Below are positions 8,480 to 31,102 of a stretch of 32,000 nucleotides of DNA, one piece after another. The notes under the pieces are model-generated. The model was not told the DNA's origin. It was given only the letters and a program-made list of their open reading frames with translations, and made no database searches. The DNA comes from Nostocales cyanobacterium HT-58-2 (lineage in GTDB: Bacteria; Cyanobacteriota; Cyanobacteriia; Cyanobacteriales; Nostocaceae). The stretch spans positions 7,774,942 through 7,806,941 of the forward strand of contig CP019636.1 in assembly GCA_002163975.1 (NCBI GenBank), read 5' to 3'. A program made the position numbers and the translations under genes. Position 1 is the first letter of the stretch. Every line of letters begins with the position of its first letter.

Positions 8480-8899
8480 ATGGAGCCACTGACTGCTGGT
8501 GCGATCGCCACTCTCGCTTTCAAAACAGCTTTTGGAGAGACGATCAAGAATCTGACACAAGCAACCCTTGCTAAGATAAACGAGCTACGCAAGAAGATTT
8601 GGGATAAGTTTCGGGGAAATCTCCAGGCAGAAACAGCACTGGTAGAAGCAGAGAAAGGTTCTGAGACTTCTTTAGAGAGAGTGGCTGAGTACTTACAAGA
8701 ACTGATGGCTAAACAACCAGAGTTTGCTGCTGATATAGAAAAATTAGCTCGTGAAATTCAGCAAGAAATTAACATTGGTAACATTCAAGGGCAGAACGTT
8801 CAGAATGTCTACGGTGGAAAAGCAGAACAGAATAATGCGAACAACACCAATGCCCCAGTGATTCAAGGTGGCAGTGGTCACACCATCACATTCAATTGA
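8480..8899 (+). CDS. small helical protein with hydrophobic N-terminal helix (Bell/HeLo-like by architecture) and Gly/Asn/Gln-rich C-terminal motif; ends at a TGA that is in frame with the next ORF
   Basis: 139-aa ORF with an ATG preceded by GAGG. Residues 1-95 are predicted all-helical (MEPLTAGAIATLAFKTAF...). Residues 96-139 read EINIGNIQGQNVQNVYGG...APVIQGGSGHTITFN (8765-8896). Confidence 0.6.
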   Translation: MEPLTAGAIATLAFKTAFGETIKNLTQATLAKINELRKKIWDKFRGNLQAETALVEAEKGSETSLERVAEYLQELMAKQPEFAADIEKLAREIQQEINIGNIQGQNVQNVYGGKAEQNNANNTNAPVIQGGSGHTITFN

Positions 8900-9013
8900 C
8901 TGCAGTCGTCCGAATGGGAACGGACAAAGTTAAATTCCCCAAAAAATATTCCATACACAGGTGTCGCCAACTTTGTCGGACGACAGCATGAACTCACCCT
9001 GCTGCATGAAAAA

Positions 9014-10474
9014 TTGCAACAACCAGGTACAGTGGCAATTTCTGCCGTAGCTGGCATGGGAGGAGTTGGGAAAACCGAACTAGCGCTACGCTATGCAAAG
9101 CAACACGAAGCGGATTATCCCGGTGGTATTTGCTGGTTATCCGCTAGAGAAACCAATCTGGCAGCTTTGATTGTACAATTTGCCCAGCTGCAGATGAATT
9201 TGGAAGTGCCGCAGGAGTTGGGAGGAAAACAGCTAACTCTCGCCCAGCAGGTGAATTGGTGCTGGCAGAACTGGCAACCACCAGAAGGGCTAGCGTTGGT
9301 GGTATTGGATGATGTCACAGATTTAGGGAATTATCGCGAGTTCCTACCAACAGCGAACCGCTTTCGAGTGTTAATAACAACACGGTTGCGAAACTTAGAC
9401 ACCAATATTGAGGAAATCCCTCTGGATGTGCTGTTACCAGAAGAAGCATTGCAATTATTGACAGCATTAGTGGGTGAAAAGCGGGTACAACGGGAAGAAG
9501 AAACAGCCAAAGAGTTATGTGAATGGTTAGGATATTTACCGTTAGGTTTGGAGTTGGTGGGGCGGTACATAGCAAAAAAACCTCCCAATTGGACTTTAGC
9601 AAAGATGTTAGAGCGGTTGAAAGCGCAGCGATTGGAAGACGAAGCTATAGATCGTCATCAATTGCAACAAACCCTAAGTACAGCACAGCTTGGAGTGAAA
9701 GCAGCATTTGAATTAAGTTGGCTGGATCTCCATCCCATGACACAACGTGTTGCCCAGTTGTTGAGCTTATTTGCACCAAATATCTTTGCTTGGAAATCGG
9801 TAGAATCTGCAACAAAGACGCTCAATTGGACTGCGTCAGATGCCGAAACAGCAAACCAGCAACTATACGAACGTCATTTGATTCAGTGGGTGGAAGATAC
9901 AGAAGATGGCTACAAAATTCATCCCTTAATTCGGGAGTTTTTGAAAGTCAAGCTAGCAACTTCAGAACAAGTCGATGAGTTGAAACGCGCTTTTGCAGAG
10001 ACTTTGATCGCAATTGCGAAGACAATTCCCAATTCGCCAACCCAGGAGTTCATTAAATCAGTAAAAAATGCGATTCCACATTTAGCAGAGGTTGCACAAA
10101 ATCTGATTGATGCAGTCAGTGATGAAAATTTACCTTGGGCTTTTGTTGGCTTAAGTAGATTTTATGAAGGACAAGGTTTGTATGCGCTAGCTCAACCCTG
10201 GTTAGAGCAATGTGTATCAGTCGTACAATTGCGTTTGGGAGATGAGCATCCCGATGTCGCCACCAGTTTCCACAACCTGGCAACACTCTACCATTCTCAA
10301 GGACGCTACAGTGAAGCCGAACCACTCTACATTCAAGCATTGGAAATTTATGAGCATCGGTTAGGCGTCAATCATCCTCATACAATTATCTCCCGTAAAA
10401 ATCTTGAAGGACTTCGCTCAGTAAGGGGTCATCGTGCCAAAACGGGAAAATTGTACCTTAAGAGATTTAGATAA
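9014..10474 (+). CDS. NB-ARC STAND NTPase with short TPR C-terminus; coding sequence almost certainly begins upstream of the listed TTG (frame open back to 8900)
   Basis: Walker A GMGGVGKTELA, Walker B LVVLDDV, RNBS-B-like LITTR and a GLPL-like motif LGYLPLGLELVG. Two kinesin-light-chain-type TPRs (HPDVATSFHNLATLYHSQGRYSEAEPLY, IYEHRLGVNHPHT). The conserved pre-P-loop segment FVGRQHELTLLHEKL lies at 8972-9016, upstream of the only candidate start. Confidence 0.75.
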   Translation: MQQPGTVAISAVAGMGGVGKTELALRYAKQHEADYPGGICWLSARETNLAALIVQFAQLQMNLEVPQELGGKQLTLAQQVNWCWQNWQPPEGLALVVLDDVTDLGNYREFLPTANRFRVLITTRLRNLDTNIEEIPLDVLLPEEALQLLTALVGEKRVQREEETAKELCEWLGYLPLGLELVGRYIAKKPPNWTLAKMLERLKAQRLEDEAIDRHQLQQTLSTAQLGVKAAFELSWLDLHPMTQRVAQLLSLFAPNIFAWKSVESATKTLNWTASDAETANQQLYERHLIQWVEDTEDGYKIHPLIREFLKVKLATSEQVDELKRAFAETLIAIAKTIPNSPTQEFIKSVKNAIPHLAEVAQNLIDAVSDENLPWAFVGLSRFYEGQGLYALAQPWLEQCVSVVQLRLGDEHPDVATSFHNLATLYHSQGRYSEAEPLYIQALEIYEHRLGVNHPHTIISRKNLEGLRSVRGHRAKTGKLYLKRFR

Positions 10475-11228: not shown

Positions 11229-11395
11229 ATCCCATTGTTATTCAACGACTTCTTCCACTGTCGAGGATGGTGTGGAGGGTGGTAGGGGAGGCAGAGGGAG
11301 CAGATGAAAATAAATCCAGCTGTAATTCAACGACTTCTTGGACTGTGGAGGATGGTGTGGAGGGTGATGTGGAGAGTGCCGTGGAGGGTTCAAGA
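11128..11395. repeat. inverted pair of 4 x 12-bp iteron arrays (core GTGGAG) plus 85-bp tandem duplication
   Basis: CTCCAC on the + strand at 11136, 11148, 11160 and 11172. GTGGAG on the + strand at 11345, 11357, 11369 and 11381. Both arrays start with TTGAACCCTCCAC when read inward. Tandem units 11206-11290 and 11291-11375 are roughly 85-90% identical. Confidence 0.8.
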
Positions 11396-13298: not shown

Positions 13299-13512
13299 TG
13301 TAGGAGCCAGCAATAAGAAACGCTCCGACCAGCAATAATGATCATTCTGAGCCAGGATTAATTGCAACTATGTTAGTGAGTTGAGCCAGGATTATCTACA
13401 ACTGGGACAGGATTAACTGCAACCAGCCAGCAATAACTTGCTTTGAGCCAGAATTGTTTGCAACTAGAATCAAAAAAATTTTTGTTAAAATATTAGTAAT
13501 ATTAATAACTAA

Positions 13513-16132: not shown

Positions 16133-16692
16133 GGTGTTCCTTGGGCCTTTGCAATGTAACTGTAGAGCGTTGGCTTAGAAATTCCCATGATTCGGCAGAT
16201 TTCTTCAATGGTGTACTGACGCTCGTTGTAGAGCTTGATAGCCAATTGACGCTTTGGCGCATCTAATGCTTTAGGTCTTCCTCCCTTGCGCCCCCGCGCT
16301 CTAGCTGCTGTCAATCCGGCTTGTGTACGTTCTCGAATCAGGTTGCGCTCAAATTCTGCTAGTGCGCCAAACAGATGGAAGATTAATTTACCACTGGTTG
16401 AGGTAGTAGCTAGAGCCTCAGTTAAGCTGTGCAATTCGATACCGCGCTCAGATAAGGTTTCCACCATTTGGATTAAATCTTTTAAGGAGCGTCCCAAACG
16501 ATCTAATCGCCATACTACCAATACGTCTCCTGCACGGGCTGCCTCTAAAGCCTTTGTTAATCCTGGACGGGCTACTCCTGCTCCGCTAAGTCTATCCTCA
16601 TAAATCCGACTACATCCCGCCTGCTTTAGGGCATCTTTTTGCAGGTTTAGATTCTGGTCGTCAGTGGAGACACGGGCATAGCCAATCAGCAT
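16129..16692 (-). CDS. serine recombinase (resolvase/invertase family)
   Basis: 187 aa. Catalytic N-terminus MLIGYARVSTDDQ, the motif VVWRLDRLGRS, and a C-terminal HTH (ICRIMGISKPTLYSYI). Confidence 0.9.
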   Translation of the reverse strand: MLIGYARVSTDDQNLNLQKDALKQAGCSRIYEDRLSGAGVARPGLTKALEAARAGDVLVVWRLDRLGRSLKDLIQMVETLSERGIELHSLTEALATTSTSGKLIFHLFGALAEFERNLIRERTQAGLTAARARGRKGGRPKALDAPKRQLAIKLYNERQYTIEEICRIMGISKPTLYSYIAKAQGTP

Positions 16693-20361: not shown

Positions 20362-22443
20362 ATGAGTGATTGTTGCAGTGAGGTCAAAAGAGAATTGGCA
20401 GCGTTACGGGCTGAAATTGCTAAGCTCAATCAAATAAATGAGGAATCAATTATTAGAAAGGCTGTTAAACGTAGCGAAGCTTCAATCATTCCTCAAATCC
20501 CAGGTATTACTAACCCTTTAATCATTTCTGCCATCAATCCTTTTAACATTCGATTGGGTAAGGCAGAGAAATTATCTGGGCAAGCATTGGATCAGGCGCG
20601 GGCTTCACTTGAAAGAGCATATGCTGCCAGTAATACTGCTAGCAATGCAGCTGCTACCGCCAGCGGTGCTGCTAGTAAGGCGGGTGCAGCGATCGCCAGA
20701 GTTGCATCTTTAGCAGCTGCGATCGCGGGGTTAGCTGCGGCAATAGCCACTTTTAAAGTTCTTGGCGCAAGGCTTGATGCTCAAGAAAGGCGTGTAGATT
20801 CTATTGATAATGGCTTATCCAAACTGTTGACTTTGATTACACCCATCAAATCGACAGCACAAAGGGCAGAACAAAAAGCCGATAGAGCCGATAGTACGGC
20901 GAACACTGCAATTTTTAAAGCCAATAATGCATCATATGCCGCAAAAGAAGCACAGGGTACAGCTGCAAACGCATACGAAAAAGCGAATGAAGCTCTTTAT
21001 GAAACCCGTGCGGGTCGAGCGGCTCTAGGAAAGCGCATTTCTGTGCTTGACAAAGAAATTAATGATACGACCTACACGGCGAACCGTGCAAACTCCAAAG
21101 CAGAGGAAGCTCTAAAGCGAGCATTCATTCCAGGACCAGCAGGACCACAAGGCACTCCTGGGAAAAATGGTGAGCGTGGTCCTCAGGGTTTGCCAGGACC
21201 GCCAGGATCACAGGGCACTCATGGGAAAAATGGTGAGCGCGGTCCTCAGGGTTTGCCAGGACCGCAAGGTATCCCAGGAAGAGATGGTGAGCGTGGTTCA
21301 GTCGGTTTACTAGGACCGCCAGGACCGCAAGGTATCCCAGGTAAAAATGGCACAGATGGCAGAGATGGTAAAGACGGCAAGAACGGAAAGGACGCACCAG
21401 TGGATAACGAAAGCAAAAGAATGTTAGAAGAGCTTAACCGCAAAGTTAGCGCTATTCCCCCGTTAATCATTGCGAAACGAGATCCACTCACTTTTGAGGA
21501 AACCGTACAAGCAACCAACACGGGCGTTTGTCGCTCCACTCAACCCGGTGGGTGTATGAGTAAAGCTTTTAATGATTTAGGCAGTGATGTTAAGGGTAAT
21601 GCTAATACGAATACAGGCAATCTTTTGAATGCAATTAATCTAGGAGCCAACGCCGAACAATTAGGGATACTCAATATCATTAACACTAAGTTGGGACCAG
21701 AGTTACCTGGAGGGTTATCAGGGACATTCGGGCGATTATGGCAGACATTACAAATTGATAGGGTATTGAATGTATTAATCCTGATAACGACATTTCATAA
21801 TGCATTCATGCTGTCTAACAATATTGCTCAAACACTGTTTGGAGCCATTGACAATATCGGTCAAGTTGCTGGATTTAAGTGGAAGAATGAAAAAGGTGAT
21901 GAGGTTGGTTTTGGTGGTCTTGTCTCCCAATGGACAACTAGCTTTTTTAAGTCCATTTTTGGGGAAGAGAATTTTAACCAGATGGTGAAAACCTATCAGT
22001 CTGCTAATCGGATGTACCAAGCGACAACTAATATGTTGTGGTCGATTCAGTCAATGTTTGATTCAGTGAGAAGTGTGACAGAGTTGACAGCCAATAACAC
22101 TGGCAAGATTGGGAATGCATTAAAAAGAGCGGGAGTTGTTTTTGAGAATGCTTTTCCGAATATGAGTGAGAGGGTGACGGCTAGAACTGCTACACAAGCG
22201 AAGTGGGATAATATTTTGAGTGGTTTACAGCCAGTGGAAAATGCTGTGAGTGCTTTTAGTTCTGTGACTGGGGGGACTGTTTCAATTGGGGATAATTTTA
22301 ATCAGTTGAAGGAGCAGCGTAAGGAGTTTGAAAAGTCTAAGCAAGATGGTGAAAAAGCTGTGGAGACTTTGATTAATGGGGAGAAGGTAGCGGTTCACTT
22401 GAAAAGTGATATGACTGAAAAAGATGTTAGGAGAAATGATTGA
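20362..22443 (+). CDS. coiled-coil / collagen-like triple-helix repeat protein with hydrophobic segments (fibre- or spike-like)
   Basis: 693 aa. Ala-rich hydrophobic stretch ([23 protein letters not shown]). Coiled-coil repeats ([40 protein letters not shown]). 29 uninterrupted Gly-X-Y triplets (21131-21393) including a 60-bp DNA repeat. A second hydrophobic segment ([17 protein letters not shown]). Confidence 0.75.
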
Positions 22444-22485: not shown

Positions 22486-25400
22486 TTAATAGAGATATGG
22501 CTCACACGTTGCTTTAGCTGCTTTCTCCTCAGGAGTTTTAGGTTCTTTGAAAACAGGATGATCCTGTAATCGCTTACAAGCAGTTTTCAACCAGGGATCT
22601 AAACTCATATCCCACATCCTGAGTGTGTGATCATCACTTCCACTGACAATTATTTGCCCATCTTTGCTTATTGCTACAGTTCTTACGGGACGCTGATGAC
22701 CTTTAAAAGGCTCATTGATTGGCTGACCCTTGGAGTTCCACATCCGCACTGTGCCATCATCATCTCCACTAACAATTGTTTGCCCATCCGTACTTATTGC
22801 TACAGAAGTTACGGGACTCTGATGACCTAAAGGCTCACTGATTGGCTGACCCTTGCGGTTCCACATCCGGACTGTCTTATCTACACTTCCACTAACAATT
22901 GTTTGCCCATCCGTACTTATTGCTATAGAAGTTATGACACCCTGTTGTGTATCAATCTTACGTTCTAGCTCACCATTGCGGTTCCATATGCGGATTGTGC
23001 CATCTCTACCTGCACTGAAAATTCTGTTCCCATCTGCACTTATGGCTACAGTATATACATTACCCTGATGACCTTTTAGTTCACCGATTGGCTGACCCTT
23101 GTGGTTCCACATCCGGACTGTGCCATTATCATCTCCACTGACAATTATTTGTCCATCTATGCTTATTGCTACAGAGGTTACGGGGCTCTGATGACCTTCA
23201 AATGGTTTACCTATCGGCTCACCCTTAGAGTTCCACATCCGGACTGTATTATCTACACCTCCACTGACAATTGTTTGCCCATCTGTACTTATTGCTACAG
23301 AAGTTATGTGACCTAGATGACCTTTAAAAGGTCCACCGATTGGCTGACCCTTGCGGTTCCACATCCGAACTGTGCCATCTTCACTTCCACTGACAATTGT
23401 TTGTCCATCCGTACTTATTGCTACACTTCTTGCCGAACCCTGATGACCTTTAATAAAAAAGTTACTTTCTGAGTCCCACATCCTGAGTGTGTGATCATCA
23501 CTTCCACTGACAATTATTTGCCCATCTTTGCTTATTGCTACAGTTCTTACGGGACGCTGATGACCTTTAAAAGGCTCATTGATTGGCTGACCCTTGGAGT
23601 TCCACATCCGCACTGTGCCATCATAACTTCCACTGGCAATTGTTTGCCCATCCATACTTATTGCTACAGAACTTATGGGGAGCTGATGACCTTCAAAAGG
23701 TTGGCCTATCGGCTGACCCTTGGAGTTCCACATCCGCACTGTTGTGTTATTGTAACCTCCACTGACAATTGTTTGTCCATCCGTGCTTATTGCTATAGAG
23801 CTTATAGCACCCTGTTGTGTAGAAAACATACCTTCTGGCTGACCCTTGCGGCTCCACATACGGACTGTGCCATCTGCACCTCCACTGAAAATTCTGTTCC
23901 CATCTGCACTTATGGCTACAGTATATACATTACCCTGATGACCTTTTAGTTCACCGATTGGCTGACCCTTGTGGTTCCACATCCGGACTGTGCCATTATC
24001 ATCTCCACTGACAATTGTTTGTCCATCTATGCTTATTGCTACAGAGGTTACGGGGCTCTGATGACCTTCAAATGGTTTACCTATCGGCTCACCCTTAGAG
24101 TTCCACATCCGGACTGTATTATCTACACCTCCACTGACAATTGTTTGCCCATCTGTACTTATTGCTACAGAAGTTATGTGACCTAGATGACCTTTAAAAG
24201 GTCCACCAATTGGCTGACCCTTGCGGTTCCACATCCGAACTGTGCCATCTTCACTTCCACTGACAATTGTTTGTCCATCCGTACTTATTGCTATACCTCT
24301 TGCCGAACCCTGATGACCTTTGAGAACATTCTTTTCCCTACTAAACTCGACTGCACTAAACAAGCTGTCTTTTATTGTTTGAGGAATCAATTGATTGGGA
24401 AAATTGAGGAAAGGCGACCGGCTTTGTGCTACAAGATTAATCGCACTCACCATCCCTTGTACGGGATAACCTTGTAAGGGATTGTTTGATAACCGATTTG
24501 TTACTAGTACGGCAGCTTGTTCTATTCGCCCTCGTTCTGCATTTTGCCACCTATAAGCTGAGATCGCTGCTACTGTCGTTAACACTAAACCTATACTTAA
24601 AACGCCAGTTAAGACTTGTCGCTGCCTTATTCGCTCCTGTTCAGCTTTTATTGCGTTTTGCTTTTTTTCTTCTTCTGCATCCACAGAGGCATGGAAAAAT
24701 TTTACTTGCAGTGGCGTTATATGCTCGCTCTTCTGCTCGTAATATTCTCTCAATAAATCCAAATCTGGAGGACGCCAAAGGCTTCCCTCTGGGCGATTGT
24801 TCTCATTCCAAACCCTCGCTGCTTCGTCCAAGCGACGCTGAAAACGAATGTCGCTGCGGCTGCTATCTAGCCATTGTCTCATCTGTCCCCAGTTGGCAAA
24901 CAATGCTTCGTGGGTCACTTCTGCGGTTTCTGTTCCGTCAATGCTAGAGAGAGTCACTAATCGCACACCAGGGTGAGCAAATCTGTCAATCACTTTTTTG
25001 ACGTACTCTGGCTCATCTTTATAAGAAACCAAGCTATTAATATTTGTACGACGACGGGTGTCGCTTGTTCCTTCCCCAAGTTGAACTAATCCCAGAAAAA
25101 CTCGTTGAGCAATTTTCTTTTCTTGTTCGTTGAGGCTTTGATAAATGCGTTGAGCTTCATCTGCCAATGCTCCACCAACTCCACCAATTTGTTCAAGCGT
25201 CTTGACAGGTTCAACACCTTTTTTTAGCCCGTCCCAAATCCGGGTTAATGCAAATTGGAGTAGCGGTAATGCTCCTTCTCGTCCTTCTGTGTCCTTCAGT
25301 AACAAGTTAACAACAGCTTCCTCCAGTGGATGACCTGCATTTGAAGCTGGTTTGGTAATTGCTTGCCGCAATTCCTCTGTACTCATCGCAGGTACAATCA

Positions 25401-26223
25401 CACCAAGTTTTGCGATCGCCTGATTGAGTGCTGGGTGTCGTTGGGTTTCTCCAAGGAAGTCGCTACGCAGAGTGATGATAACCGATACACAACCAGAGCG
25501 ATCGCCTGCGGCATGAATTAAGTTCTCGATAAATATTTGGCGTTCGGTAGCGTCATCGCAAAGCGAGTAAACTTCCTCAAACTGGTCTACCAACACCACC
25601 AATGGCGATACAGCAATCTCTGGTAAAACATTGGCAATGCGCCGTAAGCCATCATAAATAATAGTATCAGTAGTGTTACTGCTAGTTTGTTTTAATTCTT
25701 CTGCAAACTCGCGGGTTTTAGCCACAGGAGTTTGGTCATTCGTCGCCACTCTTGCCAACACCGTTGCTAAAGCTTCCACAGGATGAGTACCAGGGACAAG
25801 CACCGCCACTCGCGCTTGGCTTTTACCCGGTAAAGGACGCCGTGCGAGTTCAGGAATTAAACCTGCACGCGCTAGGGAAGATTTACCAGAACCAGATGGT
25901 CCTAAAATTGGCAGCAAACGTAATGGCGCTTCTGGTTGAGTTGTGTTTTCGTGAAGAGTCCGAAATAGATTCCACAGTTTTTCGATTTGTTTTTCTCGCC
26001 CAAAATAGCGATCGCCATCAACCTCAAGAAATGCAAGTAACCCTTTGTAGGGATTGGGACCTATTTCTCCTATAGTAGAAACTTTCTCTTCAGGAAGTTG
26101 ACGCTCTTGTTGGTACTGGTAGATAACAACTTTATTGCCATTTCCAGAAATAATCGCACTGCTGACGGCATCCTTTTCAATTCTAATGCTGCGATTCTCA
26201 TCTCTTAACCCGCGATCGCTCAT
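22486..26223 (-). CDS. STAND NTPase (nSTAND1/NACHT-like) with one hydrophobic helix and 14 WD40 blades (paralogue 1)
   Basis: 1245 aa. Walker A ILGPSGSGKSSLARAG and Walker B LVVLVDQFEE, plus TLRSDF and ALPLLQFAL motifs. Hydrophobic segment VLTGVLSIGLVLTTVAAISAY (24553-24615). WD40 units GH..x..VAIS.DGQTIVSG..DGTVRMWN. Confidence 0.9.
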   Translation of the reverse strand: MSDRGLRDENRSIRIEKDAVSSAIISGNGNKVVIYQYQQERQLPEEKVSTIGEIGPNPYKGLLAFLEVDGDRYFGREKQIEKLWNLFRTLHENTTQPEAPLRLLPILGPSGSGKSSLARAGLIPELARRPLPGKSQARVAVLVPGTHPVEALATVLARVATNDQTPVAKTREFAEELKQTSSNTTDTIIYDGLRRIANVLPEIAVSPLVVLVDQFEEVYSLCDDATERQIFIENLIHAAGDRSGCVSVIITLRSDFLGETQRHPALNQAIAKLGVIVPAMSTEELRQAITKPASNAGHPLEEAVVNLLLKDTEGREGALPLLQFALTRIWDGLKKGVEPVKTLEQIGGVGGALADEAQRIYQSLNEQEKKIAQRVFLGLVQLGEGTSDTRRRTNINSLVSYKDEPEYVKKVIDRFAHPGVRLVTLSSIDGTETAEVTHEALFANWGQMRQWLDSSRSDIRFQRRLDEAARVWNENNRPEGSLWRPPDLDLLREYYEQKSEHITPLQVKFFHASVDAEEEKKQNAIKAEQERIRQRQVLTGVLSIGLVLTTVAAISAYRWQNAERGRIEQAAVLVTNRLSNNPLQGYPVQGMVSAINLVAQSRSPFLNFPNQLIPQTIKDSLFSAVEFSREKNVLKGHQGSARGIAISTDGQTIVSGSEDGTVRMWNRKGQPIGGPFKGHLGHITSVAISTDGQTIVSGGVDNTVRMWNSKGEPIGKPFEGHQSPVTSVAISIDGQTIVSGDDNGTVRMWNHKGQPIGELKGHQGNVYTVAISADGNRIFSGGADGTVRMWSRKGQPEGMFSTQQGAISSIAISTDGQTIVSGGYNNTTVRMWNSKGQPIGQPFEGHQLPISSVAISMDGQTIASGSYDGTVRMWNSKGQPINEPFKGHQRPVRTVAISKDGQIIVSGSDDHTLRMWDSESNFFIKGHQGSARSVAISTDGQTIVSGSEDGTVRMWNRKGQPIGGPFKGHLGHITSVAISTDGQTIVSGGVDNTVRMWNSKGEPIGKPFEGHQSPVTSVAISIDGQIIVSGDDNGTVRMWNHKGQPIGELKGHQGNVYTVAISADGNRIFSAGRDGTIRIWNRNGELERKIDTQQGVITSIAISTDGQTIVSGSVDKTVRMWNRKGQPISEPLGHQSPVTSVAISTDGQTIVSGDDDGTVRMWNSKGQPINEPFKGHQRPVRTVAISKDGQIIVSGSDDHTLRMWDMSLDPWLKTACKRLQDHPVFKEPKTPEEKAAKATCEPYLY
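22609..24321 (-). repeat. WD40 coding repeat array, 14 units as 7+7 with a near-identical internal duplication
   Basis: 23013-23451 versus 23883-24321 (offset 870 bp, equal to 7 blades) differ at 4 of 439 nt. 22610-22760 versus 23474-23624 (offset 864 bp) appear identical over 151 nt. Confidence 0.9.
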
Positions 26224-26253
26224 GGATATTGCCTCATCACCGATTCACCAGCA

Positions 26254-26310
26254 TCAAAGTGTCAACCCAACAATACTAAGTAGCTTATGCCAGTTTTCAC
26301 CCAGCCAAGA
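26254..26310 (-). pseudogene. relic of the 3' end of a CHAT-effector gene
   Basis: Encodes SWLGENWHKLLSIVGLTL* versus AWLGENWHKLLGIVGLGI* at the end of the CHAT gene (30059-30115). In both cases there is the same 30-nt spacer to the downstream NTPase ATG, with a similar GAGGCAA(A/T)ATC(G/C) pre-start sequence. Confidence 0.8.
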
Positions 26311-26362
26311 CACGATTAATTTTGTGATAAAAACTTCATAAAAAATTGCATATTTAACGAGA

Positions 26363-29300
26363 TTAATCGAGATATGGTTGACAAGTTGCCTTCGCTTCTC
26401 TCTCCTCAGAACTTTCAGGCTTTTGGAAAACAGGATGATCCTGTAATCGCTCACAAGCAGCTTTCAACCAAGACTCAAATTTAATATCCCACAACCGGAC
26501 AGTGCCATCTGAACCATCACTGACAATTGTCTGTTTATCTGTGCTGATTGCTACTGAGCTTACAGAACCCTGATGACCTTTCAATTCAGTGATTTGCCTG
26601 CCATTGCTATCCCACAACCGCACAGTGCCATCCTCACCACCACTGACAACTCTCTGCTTATCTGTGCTGATTGCTACTGAGCTTACAGAACCCTGATGAC
26701 CTTTCAATTCAGTGATTTGCTTACCATTGCTATCCCACAACCGTACAGTACCATCTAAACCACCACTGACAATTGTCTGATTATCTGTGCTTATTGCTAC
26801 TGAGCTTACAGAACCCTGATGACCTCTTAAGGTAGCGACTGGCTTGCCCTTACTATCCCACAACCGCACAGTGCCATCTGAACTACCACTGACAATTGTC
26901 TGATTATCTGTGCTGATTGCTACTGAATTCACGTGATCCTGATGACCTCTTAAGGTAGCGACTGGCTTGCCCTTACTATCCCACAACCGCACAGTACCAT
27001 CTAAACTACCACTGACAATTGTCTGATTATCTGTGCTGATTGCTACTGAGATTACGGAACCATGATGACCTCTTAAGGTAGCGACTGGCTTGCCCTTGCT
27101 ATCCCACAACCGCACACTGGGATCTGAACCACCACTGACAATTGCCTGTTTATCTGTGCTGATTGCTACTGAAAATACATAACCTTGATGACCTTTCAAT
27201 TCAGTGAGTTGCTTGCCCTTACTATCCCACAACCGCACGGTGCCATCTGAACCACCACTGACAATTGTCTGATTATCTGTGCTGATTGCTACTGAGCTTA
27301 CAGAACCTTGGTGACCTTTCAATTCAGTGAGTAGCTTGGCCTTGCTATCCCACAACCGCACGGTGCCATCTGAACCACCACTGACAATTGTCTGATTATC
27401 TGTGCTGATTGCTACTGAGCTTACATAACCCTGGTGACCTTTCAATTCAGTGAGTAGCTTGGCCTTGCTATCCCACAACCGCACAGTGCCATCTGAATCA
27501 CCACTGACAATTGTCTGATTATCTGTGCTGATTGCTACTGATTTTACAGAACCCTGATGACCTTTCAATTCAGTGAGTTGCTTGCCCTTACTATCCCACA
27601 ACCGCACAGTGCCATCCTCACCACCACTGACAATTGTCTGATTATCTGTGCTGATTGCTACTGAAAATACGTAACCCTGATGACCTTTCAATTCAGTGAG
27701 TTGCTTGCCCTTACTATCCCACAACCGCACAGTGCCATCCTCACCACCACTGACAATTTTCTGATTATCTGTGCTGATTGCTACTGAGTCTACAGAACCC
27801 TGATGACCTTTCAATTCAGTGAGTTGCTTGCCCTTACTATCCCACAACCGCACAGTGCCATCCTCACCACCACTGACAATTGTCTGATTATCTATGCTGA
27901 TTGCTACTGAGATTACAGAACCCTGATGACCTTTCAGTTCAGTGAGTTGCTTGCCCTTACTATCCCACAACCGCACAGTGCCATCTGAATCACCACTGAC
28001 GATTGTCTGATTATCCGTGCTGATTGCTACTGAGCTTACATAACCCTGATGACCTTTCAATTCAGTGAGTTGCTTGCCCTTACTATCCCACAACCGCACA
28101 GTGCCATCATATCCACCACTGACAATTGTCTGATTATCTGTGCTGATTGCTACTGATTTTATAGAACCCTGATGACCTCTGAAAATATTTTTCTCCCTAC
28201 TATTTTGGACTGCACTGAATAAGCTGTCTTGTACTGATGAGGGTAATGATTGATTGGGGAAACTAAACAAAGGTGAGCGGCTTTGTCCTACAAGACTAAT
28301 TGCTCTCACCAAACTTGTTAAGGGATCTACCGATAATAAAATTTTGGCTGTTAAAGCAGCTTGTTCTGTACGCCCTCGTTCTGAGCTTTGCCACTGGTAA
28401 ACAGCAAAGCTTGCTATTGTCGTCATGAATACAAAGCCTGTACTTAATACCCCAATCCAAAGTTGTCGTTGCCGTTTTTGTTCTTGCTTTCTTGCCTCTT
28501 CTGCATCCACACAAGCATGGAAAAATTCTAATTGTAGCGGTGTCATGTCGTTACCTGCTCGCTGGTGATAGCGCTGTAGCAAGTCCAAATCAGGAGGACG
28601 CCAAAGACTTCCCTCTTTTCGCCCATGTTCATCCCAAGCTTTTGCTGCTTCTTCTAGGCGACGCCCAAAGCGAATATCACTGCGACTGCTGTCCAACCAT
28701 TGATCCAACTGACGCCAGTGCTCAAACAGCGCTTCGTGAGTGACTTCTGCTGTTTCGCCTGCTTCCGGAATGGAGGAGAGGGTAATTAAGCGCACATCAC
28801 GGGCAGCAAATTTGCCAATCACCTGTTTGACTCGCTCTGGATTGTCTTTGTGTGAGACAAGCCCTGCAAACGCAGCGCGGCGGCGGGTGTCTTTTGCCCC
28901 TTCTCCCAACTGTACCAATCCTAGAAAAACGCGTCGGGCAATTTCTTTTTCTTCAGGACTGAGGTTATCATAAATCCGTTGAGCTTCCCCAGCCAGCGCA
29001 CCGCCAACTCCACCGATTTGTTTCAGCGTGACAGCAGGTTCAATTCCTTGGGTTAACCCTTCCCAAATCCGTGACAGAGCAAACTGAAGCAAGGGTAATG
29101 CTCCCTCTCGTCCTTCGGCTTCCTCAACTAACAAATTTACCGTCGCCTGATCTAAGGGATGACCCGCCAGTTCTGCTGGTTTGGCTATTGCTCGCCGCAG
29201 TTCATCAGCAGTCATTGCTGGGATAATTAAGCCGAGTTGAGCAACGAGTTGATTCAGCACAGGATGCCTTTGGGTTTCGCCGAGAAAGTCACTGCGCAAC

Positions 29301-30028
29301 GTCACAATCACAGAAACACGGGCAGAGGGGTCAGCAGCTGCATCAACTAAATTTTCAATAAAAGCCTTGCGTTCATCAGCATTCTTGCACAGCGAGTAGA
29401 CCTCCTCAAACTGATCCACCAGCACCACTAAGGAAGATTCGGCAATCTGAGGCAGCATATCGGCGATGCGCCGCAAACCATCGTATGCACCTGTCTTATT
29501 AGTGCGTTGCAATTCATCAACAAACTCTCGTGTCTTCGCCATCGGGGTAAGATCCTGTGTCGCTACCCGTGCCAAAACCCCAGCCAAAGCGTCCAAGGGA
29601 TGCGCTCCAGGTACTAGTATCGCCACCTGCGCCTGCTTCTTTCCCGGAAGCGGTTGCCGCGCCAGTTCTGGAATTAATCCGGCGCGTGCTAGAGAAGATT
29701 TGCCACTTCCCGATGGTCCTAAAATAGGAAGCAAGCGGATTTGAGACACATCTGAGTGAAGATCCCGAAATACATTCCACAGTCGCGAAATCTGAGCTTC
29801 TCGACCAAAATAGCGATCTGCATCTTCTTCATCAAACGCCAACAAACCTTTATAAGGATTGGGACCAATTTTAGTTTCAACAGGCGATAATTCTGATTGA
29901 ACTTCTTGAGCGGTGTGATATTGGTAAATCACAACCCTATTGCCATCCCCTGAAATAATCGCACTGCTGAGTGCATCTCGTTCGATTGCGATGCTGCGAT
30001 TCTCTCCCCCAAAAGTGCTGTCACTCAT
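26363..30028 (-). CDS. STAND NTPase (nSTAND1/NACHT-like) with one hydrophobic helix and 14 WD40 blades (paralogue 2)
   Basis: 1221 aa. Walker A ILGPSGSGKSSLARAG and Walker B LVVLVDQFEE. Hydrophobic segment LWIGVLSTGFVFMTTIASFAVY (28397-28462). 14 WD40 units of 41 aa each. Confidence 0.9.
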   Translation of the reverse strand: MSDSTFGGENRSIAIERDALSSAIISGDGNRVVIYQYHTAQEVQSELSPVETKIGPNPYKGLLAFDEEDADRYFGREAQISRLWNVFRDLHSDVSQIRLLPILGPSGSGKSSLARAGLIPELARQPLPGKKQAQVAILVPGAHPLDALAGVLARVATQDLTPMAKTREFVDELQRTNKTGAYDGLRRIADMLPQIAESSLVVLVDQFEEVYSLCKNADERKAFIENLVDAAADPSARVSVIVTLRSDFLGETQRHPVLNQLVAQLGLIIPAMTADELRRAIAKPAELAGHPLDQATVNLLVEEAEGREGALPLLQFALSRIWEGLTQGIEPAVTLKQIGGVGGALAGEAQRIYDNLSPEEKEIARRVFLGLVQLGEGAKDTRRRAAFAGLVSHKDNPERVKQVIGKFAARDVRLITLSSIPEAGETAEVTHEALFEHWRQLDQWLDSSRSDIRFGRRLEEAAKAWDEHGRKEGSLWRPPDLDLLQRYHQRAGNDMTPLQLEFFHACVDAEEARKQEQKRQRQLWIGVLSTGFVFMTTIASFAVYQWQSSERGRTEQAALTAKILLSVDPLTSLVRAISLVGQSRSPLFSFPNQSLPSSVQDSLFSAVQNSREKNIFRGHQGSIKSVAISTDNQTIVSGGYDGTVRLWDSKGKQLTELKGHQGYVSSVAISTDNQTIVSGDSDGTVRLWDSKGKQLTELKGHQGSVISVAISIDNQTIVSGGEDGTVRLWDSKGKQLTELKGHQGSVDSVAISTDNQKIVSGGEDGTVRLWDSKGKQLTELKGHQGYVFSVAISTDNQTIVSGGEDGTVRLWDSKGKQLTELKGHQGSVKSVAISTDNQTIVSGDSDGTVRLWDSKAKLLTELKGHQGYVSSVAISTDNQTIVSGGSDGTVRLWDSKAKLLTELKGHQGSVSSVAISTDNQTIVSGGSDGTVRLWDSKGKQLTELKGHQGYVFSVAISTDKQAIVSGGSDPSVRLWDSKGKPVATLRGHHGSVISVAISTDNQTIVSGSLDGTVRLWDSKGKPVATLRGHQDHVNSVAISTDNQTIVSGSSDGTVRLWDSKGKPVATLRGHQGSVSSVAISTDNQTIVSGGLDGTVRLWDSNGKQITELKGHQGSVSSVAISTDKQRVVSGGEDGTVRLWDSNGRQITELKGHQGSVSSVAISTDKQTIVSDGSDGTVRLWDIKFESWLKAACERLQDHPVFQKPESSEEREAKATCQPYLD
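26486..28180 (-). repeat. WD40 coding repeat array, 14 x 123 bp, very high unit-to-unit identity
   Basis: Strict 123-bp period. For example, 27236-27358 versus 27359-27481 differ at 2 of 123 nt. The consensus unit is KGHQGSVSSVAISTDNQTIVSGGSDGTVRLWDSKGKQLTEL. Confidence 0.9.
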
Positions 30029-30058
30029 CGATTTTGCCTCTATATCAATGTACTCCTG

Positions 30059-31102
30059 TCAAATTCCCAAACCAACGATACCAAGTAGCTTATGCCAGTT
30101 CTCCCCCAACCAAGCCGTTGTTTTGGTTAAGTGAGGTTTAAGTTTTTCAACCACAGAAGCAAATCCCTCAGCTTTCTTGGCATAATCAAGCGCTCGGTCT
30201 AATGCCTTCCCCACCTCATCTTTATCCGGCTTGGGCTTGTTTACCTCCTCCTCGGCATCAGCAAAGGCATTCTCAATTTTGCGACGATCCGGACTTTCCA
30301 GCTTTGCCAGTGCTTCACACAGCGCGTTCAGTTCTGCTTGAATATCAACACTTTCAGGCGCAGGTAAACTCACAGGTTGAAATTGTATATTGGCAACGTT
30401 GCTATCTCCCGTTTGAATAGCGCTACCAGTGACATTACCCCCGATAGAAACTGAGCGATTTTGTCCCATCTTCAGTTCACTACTCCTATCATCCTCAGCA
30501 GCAGGTTTGAGGGATACAGTGTCCTCCAAACTTACTTGATTTCGACGCCGCCTTGCTTTCAGCACTGGTGTGGAAAATTCTGGAATTCCCTGTAAGTCAA
30601 TCGAAGCACGTCCTACCTCAAAAGATTCCTCATAACCTCTACCAGCACCCAACGCGTCATAAAATCCAATAGCAAACTCAATAGCAGCGACATCTCCAAT
30701 TGCTTTATTCATGCCCACAACATAATCTATATGTTGGTGAATTGCCTCTGCTTGAACTTGTGAATAACAAGCATTGAGTAAAACACACTCAATTGTGTCC
30801 TGAAACAATCCAAACAACCTTGCCAGCGATTCTGCATTCACTAGTTGCACTTGCCCAGAATTATTTTCTAAAGCCAAGCCGTCACTACCTGAACCATGCC
30901 CAGAGAAGTGAACAATATTCGGTTGATGTTCCAACAGCGCACGGCGCAGATCTTCAACTCGTATCGCCAAGGAGGTGACGATTTCAAACTGTTCTCGATG
31001 TTTGGCAAGCTTGAGCGATGCTTGGATTTCCCGCACCTCCTCATCTAGGCGCAGCTTATCTGTGTTCTTTGGATTAGCTGATAATACGAGGATTTTTTTC
31101 AC
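30059..31102 (-). CDS. caspase-like CHAT-domain protein with internal Gly/Asn-rich motif and C-terminal helical domain
   Basis: 347 aa with a GTG start. Caspase His/Cys dyad contexts are IVHFSGHG (H69) and VLLNACYS (C112). Motif GQNRSVSIGGNVTGSAIQTGDSNVANIQFQ at residues 213-242 (30377-30466). Residues 243-347 are predicted helical and end in WLGENWHKLLGIVGLGI. Confidence 0.8.
   Translation of the reverse strand: MKKILVLSANPKNTDKLRLDEEVREIQASLKLAKHREQFEIVTSLAIRVEDLRRALLEHQPNIVHFSGHGSGSDGLALENNSGQVQLVNAESLARLFGLFQDTIECVLLNACYSQVQAEAIHQHIDYVVGMNKAIGDVAAIEFAIGFYDALGAGRGYEESFEVGRASIDLQGIPEFSTPVLKARRRRNQVSLEDTVSLKPAAEDDRSSELKMGQNRSVSIGGNVTGSAIQTGDSNVANIQFQPVSLPAPESVDIQAELNALCEALAKLESPDRRKIENAFADAEEEVNKPKPDKDEVGKALDRALDYAKKAEGFASVVEKLKPHLTKTTAWLGENWHKLLGIVGLGI

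What the first reader, a model, noticed from the sequence alone, without database searches (positions are those of the whole stretch)
22486..31102. CHAT protease plus two STAND-WD40 NTPases linked only by a shared ~28-aa Gly/Asn/Ser/Ile motif: candidate prion-like NLR-to-effector defence/death cassette
On the minus strand, a 347-aa caspase-like CHAT protein (His in IVHFSGHG, Cys in LLNACYS) is followed after 30 nt by a 1221-aa STAND NTPase, and then by a 1245-aa paralogue.

Neither NTPase has an effector domain. Ahead of the NTPase module there are only ~40 residues. These contain ENRSIAIERDALSSAIISGDGNRVVIYQYH (29915-30004) and ENRSIRIEKDAVSSAIISGNGNKVVIYQYQ (26110-26199). The CHAT protein carries a matching segment, GQNRSVSIGGNVTGSAIQTGDSNVANIQFQ (30377-30466). 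The shared pattern is NRS-[IV]-x-I-x6-SAI-x-[ST]-G-[DN]-x-N-x3-I, with about 11-12 identities over 28 positions in otherwise unrelated proteins.

A short motif on the sensor N-terminus that is repeated on the neighbouring effector is the logic of fungal NWD2/HET-s. It is also the logic of the amyloid signalling sequences described for NLR-like genes of filamentous bacteria. In those systems the activated, oligomerised sensor templates the fold of the effector motif.

Three things differ here. The executioner is a protease, the motif is internal rather than terminal, and one effector is followed by two sensors with different hypervariable WD40 surfaces. A third STAND gene with its own G/N/Q-rich motif lies 12 kb away (8480-10474), so the island looks like an NLR cluster.
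Basis: partly seen in the sequence, partly recalled or inferred. Interest (0 to 1): 0.8.

Follow-up and report, generated by a model that had tools for sequence, protein, structure and literature searches.

The report
Shared-motif CHAT effector and STAND sensors
A cyanobacterial gene cluster encodes a caspase-like protease and two NLR-like sensors that share a short amyloid-type "handshake" motif; this kind of cell-death/defence switch is already described in filamentous bacteria, but this version has unreported features.

Summary
Window 30059-31102(-) encodes a 347-aa CHAT protease. It is followed by two nSTAND1-WD40 NTPases, and all three carry a ~30-aa G/N/S/I-rich motif. The similarity exceeds composition-matched shuffles.

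In 80 related genome loci:
- The motif is conserved.
- It is found only on these partners.
- It co-varies between neighbours: three motif classes pair cognately.
- It also sits on adjacent NACHT and NB-ARC sensors.

At least 35 of 38 informative loci have an adjacent sensor.

The logic is already published as BASS/NLR amyloid signalling, including CHAT effectors (Dyrka 2020). So this is a new variant, not a new kind.

New details:
- The motif is fused to a confident ~100-aa helical bundle with no known relative. The two form a portable module, found alone or behind TIR, caspase or CHAT domains.
- The sensors have a predicted membrane-spanning helix that would place the hypervariable WD40 arrays outside the cytoplasm.
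- A relic shows the second sensor lost its own effector gene.

Amyloid templating itself is inferred, not shown.

In passing: the "third STAND gene" (8480-10474) is a Bell-domain ORF joined in frame to NB-ARC-TPR through a conserved leaky-context stop codon plus a covarying hairpin. It is a candidate for programmed readthrough.

The parts
30059..31102 (-). Effector gene (ARV62733.1, 347 aa, GTG start): CHAT domain, variable linker, motif, helical bundle
   Evidence: ORF. Pfam CHAT and PADLOC chat. 100% identical to an NCBI protein.
30578..31102 (-). CHAT caspase-like protease domain (aa 1-175) with His69 and Cys112
   Evidence: Pfam match to aa 7-159. H69 and C112 are invariant in 28 homologues. 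The AF2 model gives an alpha/beta fold with pLDDT ~70-86.
30377..30466 (-). Effector-side motif GQNRSVSIGGNVTGSAIQTGDSNVANIQFQ (aa 213-242)
   Evidence: 62 bits against the motif HMM. Conserved in the family. pLDDT ~30 in the full-length model, with only short strands predicted. No regular structure in the tail model.
30062..30376 (-). C-terminal helical bundle (aa 243-347). Together with the motif it forms a portable module of unknown fold family.
   Evidence: pLDDT 95-98. 385 representative proteins carry the module, many of them stand-alone proteins of ~140 aa. No Pfam, NCBIfam, PDB or BFVD relative.
30029..30058 (-). 30-nt operon spacer with an SD-like GAGG before the ATG of sensor 1
   Evidence: The length is conserved in 9 loci. 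Some loci have in-frame stops in the spacer, so it is an ordinary junction.
26363..30028 (-). Sensor 1 (ARV62732.1, 1221 aa): motif, nSTAND1, TM-like helix, 14 WD40 repeats
29915..30004 (-). Sensor-1 N-terminal motif ENRSIAIERDALSSAIISGDGNRVVIYQYH (aa 9-38)
   Evidence: 50 bits against the motif HMM. Score 55 against the CHAT protein, reached in 0 of 2000 shuffles.
28613..29857 (-). nSTAND1 NTPase module of sensor 1 (aa 58-472; Walker A GPSGSGKSS)
   Evidence: PF20703, 372 bits.
28400..28462 (-). Predicted transmembrane helix of sensor 1 (aa ~523-543), preceded by KQEQKRQRQ
   Evidence: Kyte-Doolittle score 1.83. A comparable segment occurs in 34 of 42 nSTAND1 partners. Mean K+R is 4.8 upstream against 1.9 downstream, p = 9e-7.
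26456..28177 (-). WD40 array of sensor 1: 14 repeats of exactly 41 aa with hypervariable positions
   Evidence: TRF finds a period of 123 nt, 13.8 copies, 91% matches. At repeat positions 7, 17, 23, 36 and 37 there are 290 non-synonymous and 0 synonymous codon differences.
26225..26309 (-). Relic of the 3' end of a second effector gene (SWLGENWHKLLSIVGLTL*) plus its spacer
   Evidence: 67 of 88 nt identical to the 3' end of the real CHAT gene plus its spacer.
22486..26223 (-). Sensor 2 (ARV62731.1, 1245 aa): motif (26110-26199), nSTAND1, TM-like helix (24559-24615), 14 WD40 repeats (22579-24318)
8480..8899 (+). Bell-domain protein (ARV62719.1, 139 aa; starts MEPLT) with a C-terminal G/N/Q motif. 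It ends in the conserved TGA at 8897-8899.
   Evidence: Family members P0389 and P0391 carry BASS9. The MEPIS motif is described in 10.1101/2024.11.07.622273.
8908..8925 (+). Conserved 5-bp RNA hairpin (GUCCG-N8-CGGAC) starting 9 nt after the TGA (8-nt spacer)
   Evidence: 97.5% of cells paired, 10 compensatory cells, 0 of 500 shuffles reach this.
8900..10474 (+). NB-ARC-TPR reading frame, continuous with the Bell ORF. No canonical start codon lies before its conserved FVGRQHEL element.

Best explanation
This is a two-component cell-death or defence cassette of the NLR/amyloid-signalling (BASS-like) type, here with one effector and two sensors.

Proposed mechanism:
1. Each sensor is an nSTAND1 NTPase. 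Its first ~40 residues carry a G/N/S/I-rich motif.
2. After the NTPase comes a predicted single membrane-spanning helix, then two seven-bladed WD40 propellers with hypervariable surface positions. These propellers are the likely ligand-binding part and are predicted to face the periplasm.
3. Ligand binding is inferred to drive NTP-dependent oligomerisation. This brings the N-terminal motifs together so that they fold into a cross-beta nucleus.
4. The nucleus then templates the homologous motif in the effector protein.
5. The effector consists of a CHAT caspase-like protease, the motif, and a helical bundle. Polymerisation would activate the protease by induced proximity, and/or change the state of the helical bundle. 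The expected outcome is proteolysis and death or dormancy of the cell.

Shown here: the domain composition, the operon linkage, the specific sharing and co-variation of the motif, its portability across STAND clades and across effector types, and the existence of covalent CHAT-nSTAND1-WD40 fusions.

Inferred, not shown: the amyloid nature of the contact, the membrane topology, the trigger, the targets of the protease, and the role of the helical bundle.
For: - Domains.
- Motif similarity beyond composition.
- Conserved motif and tail in 4,023 homologues from filamentous cyanobacteria.
- Linkage to nSTAND1 in both gene orders.
- Class-level co-variation. Mean scores of tail classes against N-terminus classes 1/2/3 are 55.4/27.5/30.2, 25.4/60.0/32.0 and 29.6/39.0/74.0.
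- Fine-scale co-variation.
- Motif HMM specificity, including adjacent NACHT and NB-ARC-TPR sensors.
- All-in-one CHAT-nSTAND1-WD40 fusions in L059 and L063.
- Stand-alone 'motif + helical bundle' genes followed within 7-9 nt by motif-bearing nSTAND1 genes. In L081 one effector sits beside three sensors.
- Amyloid-type features. The composition (N, I, G, V enriched; L, P, K depleted) matches the published BASS signature. The core resembles BASS6. Some effectors carry the motif as a tandem pseudo-repeat while their sensor has one copy, as in HET-s, BASS1 and BASS6. The motif is unstructured in AF2 monomer models.
- Published proof of principle for BASS signalling in phage defence.
Against: - No experiment or multimer model shows that this motif forms amyloid.
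- A BASS6 profile built from published peptides reaches only E = 0.043 on the best CHAT tail and E = 3.8 on the window protein. Membership of a validated BASS family is therefore not established.
- The motif is internal, not C-terminal as in all described BASS effectors.
- Within the window's own sub-type of sensor N-terminus (...VIYQYQ, n = 6) there is no detectable fine co-variation. The window pair ranks only 16th of 38.
- A few CHAT genes are orphans, for example L015.
- The TM prediction rests on hydropathy and charge bias only.
Confidence: 0.6

Rival explanations
1. The motif is a conventional, non-amyloid homotypic adaptor. This is the 'EAD principle' of Kaur et al. The sensor and effector motifs would dock stoichiometrically, for example by beta-strand augmentation, possibly with help from the helical bundle. 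That recruits the CHAT protease to the oligomerised sensor, as CARD-CARD contacts recruit caspase-9 to Apaf-1. No self-propagating fold would be involved.
For: - Same gene logic and the same co-variation.
- Adjacent copies being most alike is exactly the published EAD rule.
- The motif always comes with a folded helical domain on the effector side. That domain could be the real docking surface.
Against: - The sensors carry only the motif, not the helical domain.
- No Pfam EAD model matches.
- Nine of the 12 EADs are helical domains. Here the shared element is a 30-residue, L/P-free, N/G/I-rich segment that is disordered in monomer models.
- Pseudo-repeat duplication in some effectors fits a beta-solenoid better.
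Confidence: 0.27
2. The shared segment is a recognition or cleavage site for the CHAT protease. Cyanobacterial caspase homologues commonly cut after Arg or Lys (my own knowledge). Cutting at the conserved N-R-S would free the helical module from CHAT and trim the sensor N-termini. The similarity would then reflect a common substrate sequence and not a contact.
For: - Arg-Ser at the start of the motif is nearly invariant on both partners.
- Protease-released latent effectors are a widespread defence logic.
Against: - The same motif with the same Arg occurs in stand-alone helical-module proteins and TIR fusions whose loci show no protease.
- Conservation extends over ~28 residues, far more than a cleavage site needs.
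- Motif classes 2 and 3 have no conserved basic residue yet show the same pairing.
- BASS6 peptides share the Arg without any protease.
Confidence: 0.08
3. The resemblance is a by-product of low-complexity linkers and has no function.
For: The segment is compositionally biased. The window pair shares only 11 identities.
Against: - Shuffle tests.
- HMM specificity over 2,174 ORFs.
- Co-variation.
- Conservation at 60-80% protein identity across orders.
Confidence: 0.02

Closest known systems
Bell/BASS-NLR amyloid-signalling gene pairs of filamentous bacteria (Dyrka et al. 2020, 10.1101/2020.01.06.895854), including their CHAT-, TIR2-, hydrolase- and cyclase-BASS examples
   Same: - Adjacent, collinear genes.
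- A ~25-30-aa G/N/V/I-rich, K/P/L-poor motif on the effector and at the N-terminus of a STAND sensor that has no effector domain.
- WD or TPR repeats on the sensor.
- Restriction to multicellular cyanobacteria.
- Pseudo-repeats in some effectors.
- 'All-in-one' fusions exist.
- The core resembles BASS6 ([ED]RS[IV]..GG.N/D...I.TGD).
   Different: - The sensors are nSTAND1. That study screened only NB-ARC and NACHT.
- The motif is internal and is followed by a conserved helical bundle.
- A proxy BASS6 profile does not reach the published E <= 0.01 threshold.
- None of the window proteins is in their tables.
- The sensors have a predicted TM helix.
HET-S/NWD2 of Podospora anserina
   Same: The N-terminal motif of a WD40 STAND templates the motif of a neighbouring executioner. 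The WD40 repeats are highly homogeneous, with a few hypervariable positions.
   Different: In HET-S the executioner is a HeLo pore-former with a C-terminal double repeat. Here it is a protease plus a helical bundle with (in the window) a single internal repeat. The NTPase clade also differs.
Bab/Agp BASS11 abortive-infection system of E. coli (Ibarlosa et al. 2024, 10.1101/2024.11.07.622273)
   Same: It is the experimental proof that a shared amyloid motif couples a sensor to a small helical death effector in phage defence. BASS11 is also reported on CHAT and TIR proteins.
   Different: The sensor is TPR-GreA/B-C-PIN, not a STAND. The effector is Bell-like with the motif at its C-terminus. The motif family is different.
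Effector-associated domains (EADs) of NTP-dependent conflict systems (Kaur et al. 2020 PMC7159879; 2021 PMC8195603)
   Same: The same small element occurs on a caspase, TIR or trypsin effector and at the N-terminus of a STAND or other core protein. Neighbouring copies are the most alike. The systems are enriched in multicellular bacteria. nSTAND1 belongs to the nSTAND group of clades used in this literature.
   Different: No Pfam EAD model matches. Most EADs are ~80-100-aa helical domains, whereas the shared element here is a short beta-prone motif.
Apaf-1/caspase-9 apoptosome
   Same: A WD40 STAND NTPase activates a caspase-fold protease through a homotypic N-terminal adaptor and induced proximity.
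   Different: The adaptor there is a CARD six-helix bundle, the sensor is cytosolic, and there is no sequence relationship.
EACC1-caspase and other protease-gated pore formers (PMC12642450)
   Same: A caspase-like protease is genetically coupled to a small non-enzymatic module in defence islands.
   Different: EACC1 is a single-TM alpha+beta protein that is cleaved to become active. The helical bundle here matches no EACC1 model, and it is fused to, not cleaved by, the protease as far as can be seen.

Membership tests
BASS/NLR amyloid-signalling pair (Dyrka 2020) | [quoted passage not shown] | tested here: met
BASS/NLR amyloid-signalling pair (Dyrka 2020) | The motif lies at the C-terminus of the effector protein | tested here: not met
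   The motif is at aa 213-242 of 347 and is followed by a 105-aa helical bundle.
BASS/NLR amyloid-signalling pair (Dyrka 2020) | The sensor is an NB-ARC or NACHT STAND | tested here: not met
   Both window sensors are nSTAND1. The same motif does occur on adjacent NACHT (L037, L039, L081) and NB-ARC-TPR (L022) genes elsewhere.
BASS/NLR amyloid-signalling pair (Dyrka 2020) | Composition: enriched in N/Q/G/V/I, depleted in K/P/L, ~25 aa, beta-prone | tested here: met
   N 2.2x, I 2.1x, G 1.9x, V 1.3x; L 0.05x, P 0.16x, K 0.5x; Q is not enriched at 0.77x. Short strands are predicted.
BASS/NLR amyloid-signalling pair (Dyrka 2020) | Recognised by one of the BASS1-10 profile HMMs at E <= 0.01 | tested here: inconclusive
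   The original pHMMs were not available. A BASS6 profile rebuilt from 21 published peptides gives a best E of 0.043, and E = 3.8 for the window. The reverse search scores BASS6 peptides higher (up to 13.8 bits) than other BASS families.
BASS/NLR amyloid-signalling pair (Dyrka 2020) | The motif forms amyloid fibrils or prion foci, and the sensor motif seeds the effector motif | not testable with these tools
   Needs ThT, EM, ssNMR or in vivo foci assays.
BASS/NLR amyloid-signalling pair (Dyrka 2020) | Occurs in multicellular or filamentous bacteria | tested here: met
   Hits are in Nostocales, Oscillatoriales and similar groups.
CHAT domain (PF12770), caspase-fold peptidase | Profile match above the gathering score, with a conserved His/Cys dyad | tested here: met
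   41.7 bits against a cut-off of 24. H69 and C112 are invariant.
nSTAND1 (PF20703) | Profile match with a Walker A P-loop | tested here: met
   372 and 373 bits over 378 of 379 profile positions. GPSGSGKSS is visible.
Effector-associated domains EAD1-12 (Kaur 2020) | Match to a described EAD family | tested here: not met
   No EAD model hit even at E <= 10 for the tail or the sensor N-terminus.
Effector-associated domains EAD1-12 (Kaur 2020) | EAD principle: the same element on the effector and the core NTPase, with neighbouring copies most alike | tested here: met
EACC1-caspase two-gene system | A small EACC1 protein with one conserved TM helix next to the caspase gene | tested here: not met
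   No EACC1 match in Pfam or NCBIfam. The tail is a soluble-looking helical bundle.
Bell domain (for ORF 8480-8899) | N-terminal MEP[IL][ST]-type motif, a ~100-aa helical domain, a C-terminal BASS, and an adjacent NLR | tested here: met
   The ORF starts MEPLTAGAIATLAF. Family members carry BASS9. NB-ARC-TPR lies downstream. The MEPIS motif is described.

The most novel reading that the evidence does not exclude
The ~30-aa motif plus the ~100-aa helical bundle may be a previously undescribed amyloid-gated executioner or adaptor module. It would be a functional mirror image of HeLo/Bell, with the motif first and the helical domain last. CHAT, TIR or caspase domains would be optional add-ons.

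Its nSTAND1 partners may be single-pass membrane receptors whose hypervariable WD40 propellers sample the periplasm. That would make this an outside-in 'death receptor' pathway and not a cytosolic NLR.

In the same island, the Bell/NB-ARC-TPR gene (8480-10474) may make both signalling partners from one reading frame by programmed stop-codon readthrough. The partners would be a short Bell-motif effector and a long Bell-motif-NB-ARC-TPR sensor, and their motifs would be identical by construction.
Probability: 0.3. Interest if true: 0.85.

Novelty: new variant of a known kind. Interest (0 to 1): 0.6.

Why it matters
It extends amyloid-type NLR signalling in bacteria in four ways:
- To a large STAND clade (nSTAND1) that the original screens did not cover.
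- To sensors that are probably membrane-spanning.
- To a widespread (385 representative clusters), unannotated 'motif + helical bundle' module. This module links STAND sensors to CHAT, TIR and caspase effectors, or acts alone.
- To a clean natural co-variation series (three motif classes), which is ready-made material for specificity and cross-seeding experiments.

The neighbouring Bell/NB-ARC locus could matter more. If it is confirmed, it would be a rare case of programmed stop-codon readthrough in bacteria. It would also be a new way of keeping sensor and effector motifs matched.

Tried and rejected
- **Chance or low-complexity similarity.** Rejected by the shuffle tests and by HMM specificity.
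- **Tail as a Pfam EAD, EACC1 or other named domain.** No hit in Pfam at E <= 10, in NCBIfam or in PADLOC.
- **Helical bundle related to Bell.** hhalign probability is 9.5% against the Bell family alignment and 3% against the single window ORF.
- **Helical bundle with a solved or viral structural relative.** Best Foldseek E is 0.5 (PDB) and 0.16 (BFVD). The PDB sequence search found only designed helical proteins.
- **Strict BASS6 membership.** The resemblance is real, but the rebuilt profile is not significant.
- **Readthrough at the CHAT to sensor-1 junction.** Rejected. The spacer carries an SD and an ATG, and several orthologous spacers contain in-frame stops.
- **A tRNA integration site or suppressor tRNA in the window.** None found.
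- **An Rfam family at the Bell stop-codon hairpin.** None.
- **Promoter and terminator scans of the cassette.** Not above shuffled expectation.
- **Window proteins in the Dyrka 2020 tables.** Absent.
- **Fine co-variation within the window's own N-terminus sub-type.** No signal, with n = 6.

Full report
**1. What is there**

The window comes from Nostocales cyanobacterium HT-58-2; the CHAT protein is 100% identical to ARV62733.1. The minus strand carries three ORFs:
- 30059-31102: 347 aa, GTG start.
- 26363-30028: 1221 aa.
- 22486-26223: 1245 aa.

The first ORF matches Pfam CHAT (PF12770, E = 1.2e-10) and the PADLOC 'chat' model (E = 8e-21). The other two match nSTAND1 (PF20703, 372-373 bits, nearly full length) and each has 14 WD40 repeats. 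His69 and Cys112 of the CHAT protein are invariant in 28 homologues.

Local alignment of the CHAT protein against the sensor N-termini scores 55 and 45. Composition-preserving shuffles give 24-27 ± 4. The observed score was reached in 0 of 2000 shuffles for sensor 1 and 2-3 of 2000 for sensor 2.

**2. Is the motif meaningful?**

The CHAT protein belongs to a family of about 4,000 database clusters, conserved over its full length at 60-82% identity across filamentous cyanobacteria. Its layout is:
- a CHAT domain,
- a variable linker,
- the conserved motif QNRSVSIGG.VTGSAIQTGD.NTANI.FQ,
- a strongly conserved C-terminal region of ~105 aa.

I fetched 80 genome loci. Of 42 CHAT genes with the window-type tail:
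- 32 have an nSTAND1 gene within 3 kb on the same strand. The order is either CHAT then nSTAND1 with a conserved 30-nt spacer, as in the window, or nSTAND1 then CHAT.
- Two more (L009, L012) have sensors cut off by the contig end.
- One (L022) has an adjacent NB-ARC-TPR gene.
- Four are uninformative because of contig ends.
- Two or three are true orphans.

All the neighbouring nSTAND1 proteins carry the motif within their first ~40 residues. It comes in two flavours...SSAIISG.GNKVVIYQYQ and ...SSAIITGDRNTATITITNYYY.

A profile of the motif was searched against all 2,174 ORFs of at least 70 aa in ~1.4 Mb. It hit only:
- the CHAT tails,
- the nSTAND1 N-termini,
- four further N-termini in the same loci. 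Two are NACHT proteins, one is an NB-ARC-TPR protein, and one is a fragment at a contig end.

So the motif is not a generic linker, and it is portable across STAND clades.

**3. Co-variation**

CHAT domains of the same family occur with other tails. Five loci (L042, L046, L047, L051, L079) carry GISQSVSGGQMYGGMQA.QG next to nSTAND1 proteins that start ...VGGGMQAAIGDDNIQIQG. One locus (L032) carries QSIGNISTVGSNNAFSIIQ next to QSIGNINSQGDDNVINVIQ.

Mean scores of tail class against N-terminus classes 1/2/3 are:
- class 1 tails: 55.4 / 27.5 / 30.2
- class 2 tails: 25.4 / 60.0 / 32.0
- class 3 tail: 29.6 / 39.0 / 74.0

Across all pairs, cognate scores exceed permuted pairings in 10,000 of 10,000 trials. 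Within class 1 alone, 26 non-redundant pairs give 61.4 for cognate against 56.6 for non-cognate (1 of 20,000). Matching substitutions are visible, such as SAIQTGD in both L019 partners and SAIITGD in both L010 partners. The window's own sub-type (n = 6) shows no fine signal.

Covalent CHAT-nSTAND1-WD40 fusions exist in L059 and L063. Such 'all-in-one' forms are the usual counterpart of split signalling pairs.

**4. The 'internal' position explained**

The motif together with the C-terminal region forms a module. A search of 1.84 billion representative proteins with aa 205-347 found 385 hits.
- Most are stand-alone proteins of 130-145 aa, with the motif at the N-terminus and then the helical domain.
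- Others have the module behind TIR, CHAT+TIR, a C14 caspase or pentapeptide repeats, or in front of CHASE2.

Stand-alone genes are followed within 7-9 nt by nSTAND1 genes that carry the cognate motif. In L081, one such gene sits beside two nSTAND1 genes and one NACHT gene, all with the motif, next to an integrase.

AF2 models the helical part as a bundle of four to five helices at pLDDT 95-98. The motif stays unstructured: pLDDT 62-71 in the tail model and ~30 in the full-length model.

The bundle has no relative in Pfam, NCBIfam, PDB sequences, PDB folds or BFVD. It is not detectably a Bell domain. Because it is the only folded part of the stand-alone proteins, it is likely to be an effector or essential adaptor in its own right. 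That is an inference.

**5. The sensors**

Sensor 1 has 14 WD40 repeats of exactly 41 aa, 91% identical at the DNA level. Variation is concentrated at repeat positions 5, 7, 17, 22-23 and 36-39. At the five most variable positions, all 290 pairwise codon differences are non-synonymous. This is the pattern of fungal NWD/HET-E sensors (my own knowledge). Sensor 2 is more diverged, at 73%.

The mean K+R count is 4.8 in the 15 residues before it and 1.9 after it (p = 9e-7). This predicts a single-pass N-in/C-out topology, which would put the WD40 arrays outside the cytoplasm. The prediction rests on hydropathy and charge only.

**6. History of the locus**

The 139-nt spacer between the two sensor genes contains a relic at 26225-26309. 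It encodes the last ~17 codons of a tail gene (SWLGENWHKLLSIVGLTL*) plus the 30-nt spacer. The relic is 67/88 nt identical to the corresponding part of the real gene. So sensor 2 once had its own effector gene. The 'one effector, two sensors' layout arose by duplicating the cassette and deleting one effector.

The CHAT to sensor-1 junction is an ordinary SD-ATG operon junction.

**7. Comparison with what is known**

Dyrka et al. (2020) defined BASS1-10 as motifs shared by Bell-domain effectors and adjacent NB-ARC or NACHT proteins in filamentous bacteria. [quoted passage not shown] Ibarlosa et al. (2024) showed experimentally that such a pair (Bab/Agp, BASS11) is an abortive-infection system, and they state that BASS motifs occur on CHAT and TIR proteins. 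Kaur et al. (2020, 2021) described the equivalent 'EAD principle'. nSTAND1 itself is a Pfam family (PF20703) that others have already used to annotate such conflict systems.

The concept, including a CHAT executioner, is therefore known. The following points are not covered in those papers as far as I could read:
- nSTAND1 sensors carrying such motifs,
- the helical module,
- the internal or N-terminal placement of the motif,
- the TM prediction.

The window proteins are not in the published tables.

The motif composition fits the BASS signature. Its core resembles BASS6, for example ATGFRSVAVGGDVGVAITGDGAR. My motif HMM scores BASS6 peptides above all other BASS families. However, a rebuilt BASS6 profile reaches only E = 0.043, so membership of BASS6 is unproven. 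Some orthologous effectors (L029, L030, L034, L035; P0070, P0085) carry the motif twice in tandem while their sensors carry it once, as in HET-s, BASS1 and BASS6.

**8. Mechanism and confidence**

I am about 85% confident that the motif is the specific coupling element between sensor and effector. The full best explanation, which includes coupling by amyloid-like templating, stands at about 60%. The main rival is a stoichiometric, non-amyloid adaptor contact (~27%). A protease-site explanation is unlikely (~8%), because the motif occurs in loci that show no protease. Chance is excluded.

**9. Side-finding: the 'third STAND gene'**

ORF 8480-8899 is a Bell-domain protein. It starts MEPLT..., and its family includes BASS9 carriers. 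Its TGA stop (8897-8899) is followed in the same frame by NB-ARC-TPR. There is no ATG, GTG or TTG before the conserved FVGRQHEL element.

In all 14 loci that have this stop context and a downstream P-loop, the P-loop lies in frame 0, at 50-55 codons after the stop. In-frame indels have therefore occurred. Twelve of these loci use TGA and two use TAG.

The context stop-CUR-CAG is almost invariant. UGA-C is the weakest bacterial stop context, and UGA-CUA is a classic readthrough context (both from my own knowledge).

A 5-bp hairpin starts 9 nt after the stop and is kept by compensatory changes that alter the peptide. In it, 97.5% of cells are paired, there are 10 double-sided changes, and 0 of 500 shuffles reach this. 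No Rfam family matches it. No paper linking readthrough to these genes was found.

By contrast, classical Bell/NLR pairs from the same scan have ordinary stops, and their NLR gene has its own start codon and its own copy of the motif (L110, L113, L117).

The simplest reading is programmed readthrough. It would give a short Bell-motif effector and a rare long Bell-motif-NB-ARC-TPR sensor from one ORF. I put this at about 50%. The rivals are non-canonical initiation, or an ancient nonsense mutation kept for another reason.

**10. Verdict**

This is a real, well-supported sensor/effector cassette of a published kind, in a variant with several unreported features. It sits in a mobile-looking island that also carries an integrase, a D5-type primase, a TniB-like ATPase and a resolvase. 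The island also holds a possibly more novel recoding candidate.

Noticed in passing
window 8480-10474 (stop at 8897-8899; hairpin 8908-8912/8921-8925): A Bell-domain ORF and NB-ARC-TPR share one reading frame, separated by a single conserved stop (TGA, or TAG in two loci) in the context stop-CUR-CAG. A covarying 5-bp hairpin starts 9 nt after the stop. No canonical start codon precedes the NB-ARC N-terminal element. In 14 of 14 such loci the P-loop is in frame 0. This is a candidate for programmed stop-codon readthrough that would make the effector and the sensor from one ORF.
   Followed up: yes
window 26225-26309 (-): A relic of the last ~17 codons (SWLGENWHKLLSIVGLTL*) and the 30-nt spacer of a second CHAT-tail effector gene lies between the two sensor genes. 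The cassette was duplicated and one effector was then deleted.
   Followed up: yes
window 28400-28462 (-) and 24559-24615 (-): A predicted transmembrane helix lies between nSTAND1 and the WD40 array in both sensors. A comparable segment is present in 34 of 42 related sensors, with a strong positive-inside charge bias. The WD40 arrays may therefore be extracytoplasmic.
   Followed up: yes
window 22579-24318 (-): The two seven-repeat halves of sensor 2's WD40 array are near-identical copies. For example, the repeats at aa 636 and 926, and at aa 678 and 968, are almost the same. This points to a recent tandem duplication of a whole propeller. Sensor 1 instead shows repeat-by-repeat homogenisation (91% DNA identity).
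   Followed up: partly
window 6579-8018, 11242-13335, 13513-16692: Mobile-element genes surround the NLR-like genes: a tyrosine integrase, a D5_N/DUF5906 primase-helicase, a TniB-like AAA_22 ATPase, a 552-aa ORF with no Pfam hit, and a serine resolvase. The region looks like an integrated element or defence island. No tRNA gene is present in the window.
   Followed up: partly
window 20362-22443 (+): A 693-aa protein with collagen triple-helix repeats and an alanine-zipper-like segment lies directly upstream of sensor 2, convergent with it. Its function is unknown.
   Followed up: no
L042, L046, L047, L051, L079; L032:3927-7431: There are two further motif classes on CHAT effector/nSTAND1 pairs: GGMQA.QG-type and QSIGNI-type. 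In each the motif is internal and followed by a helical C-terminal region. The sensor N-termini of these classes end in a conserved ...TFN[KE]TEILQISVEEIKTR segment.
   Followed up: partly
L048, L050, L053, L058, L061, L062 and others; L057, L060, L064, L065 and others: The same CHAT domain family is also fused to TIR + AAA_35 or to AAA_35 alone. A large WD40 gene that lacks an nSTAND1 module usually follows. This is a different way of wiring the same protease.
   Followed up: no
L081:1-8795: One stand-alone 142-aa 'motif + helical bundle' gene is flanked by three motif-bearing STAND genes (nSTAND1-pentapeptide, NACHT, nSTAND1), directly downstream of an integrase-like gene.
   Followed up: partly
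L086/L087:6001-8244 (P0136): Pentapeptide-repeat proteins carry the same motif + helical module at their C-terminus, but they sit in housekeeping-looking neighbourhoods with no STAND gene nearby.
   Followed up: no
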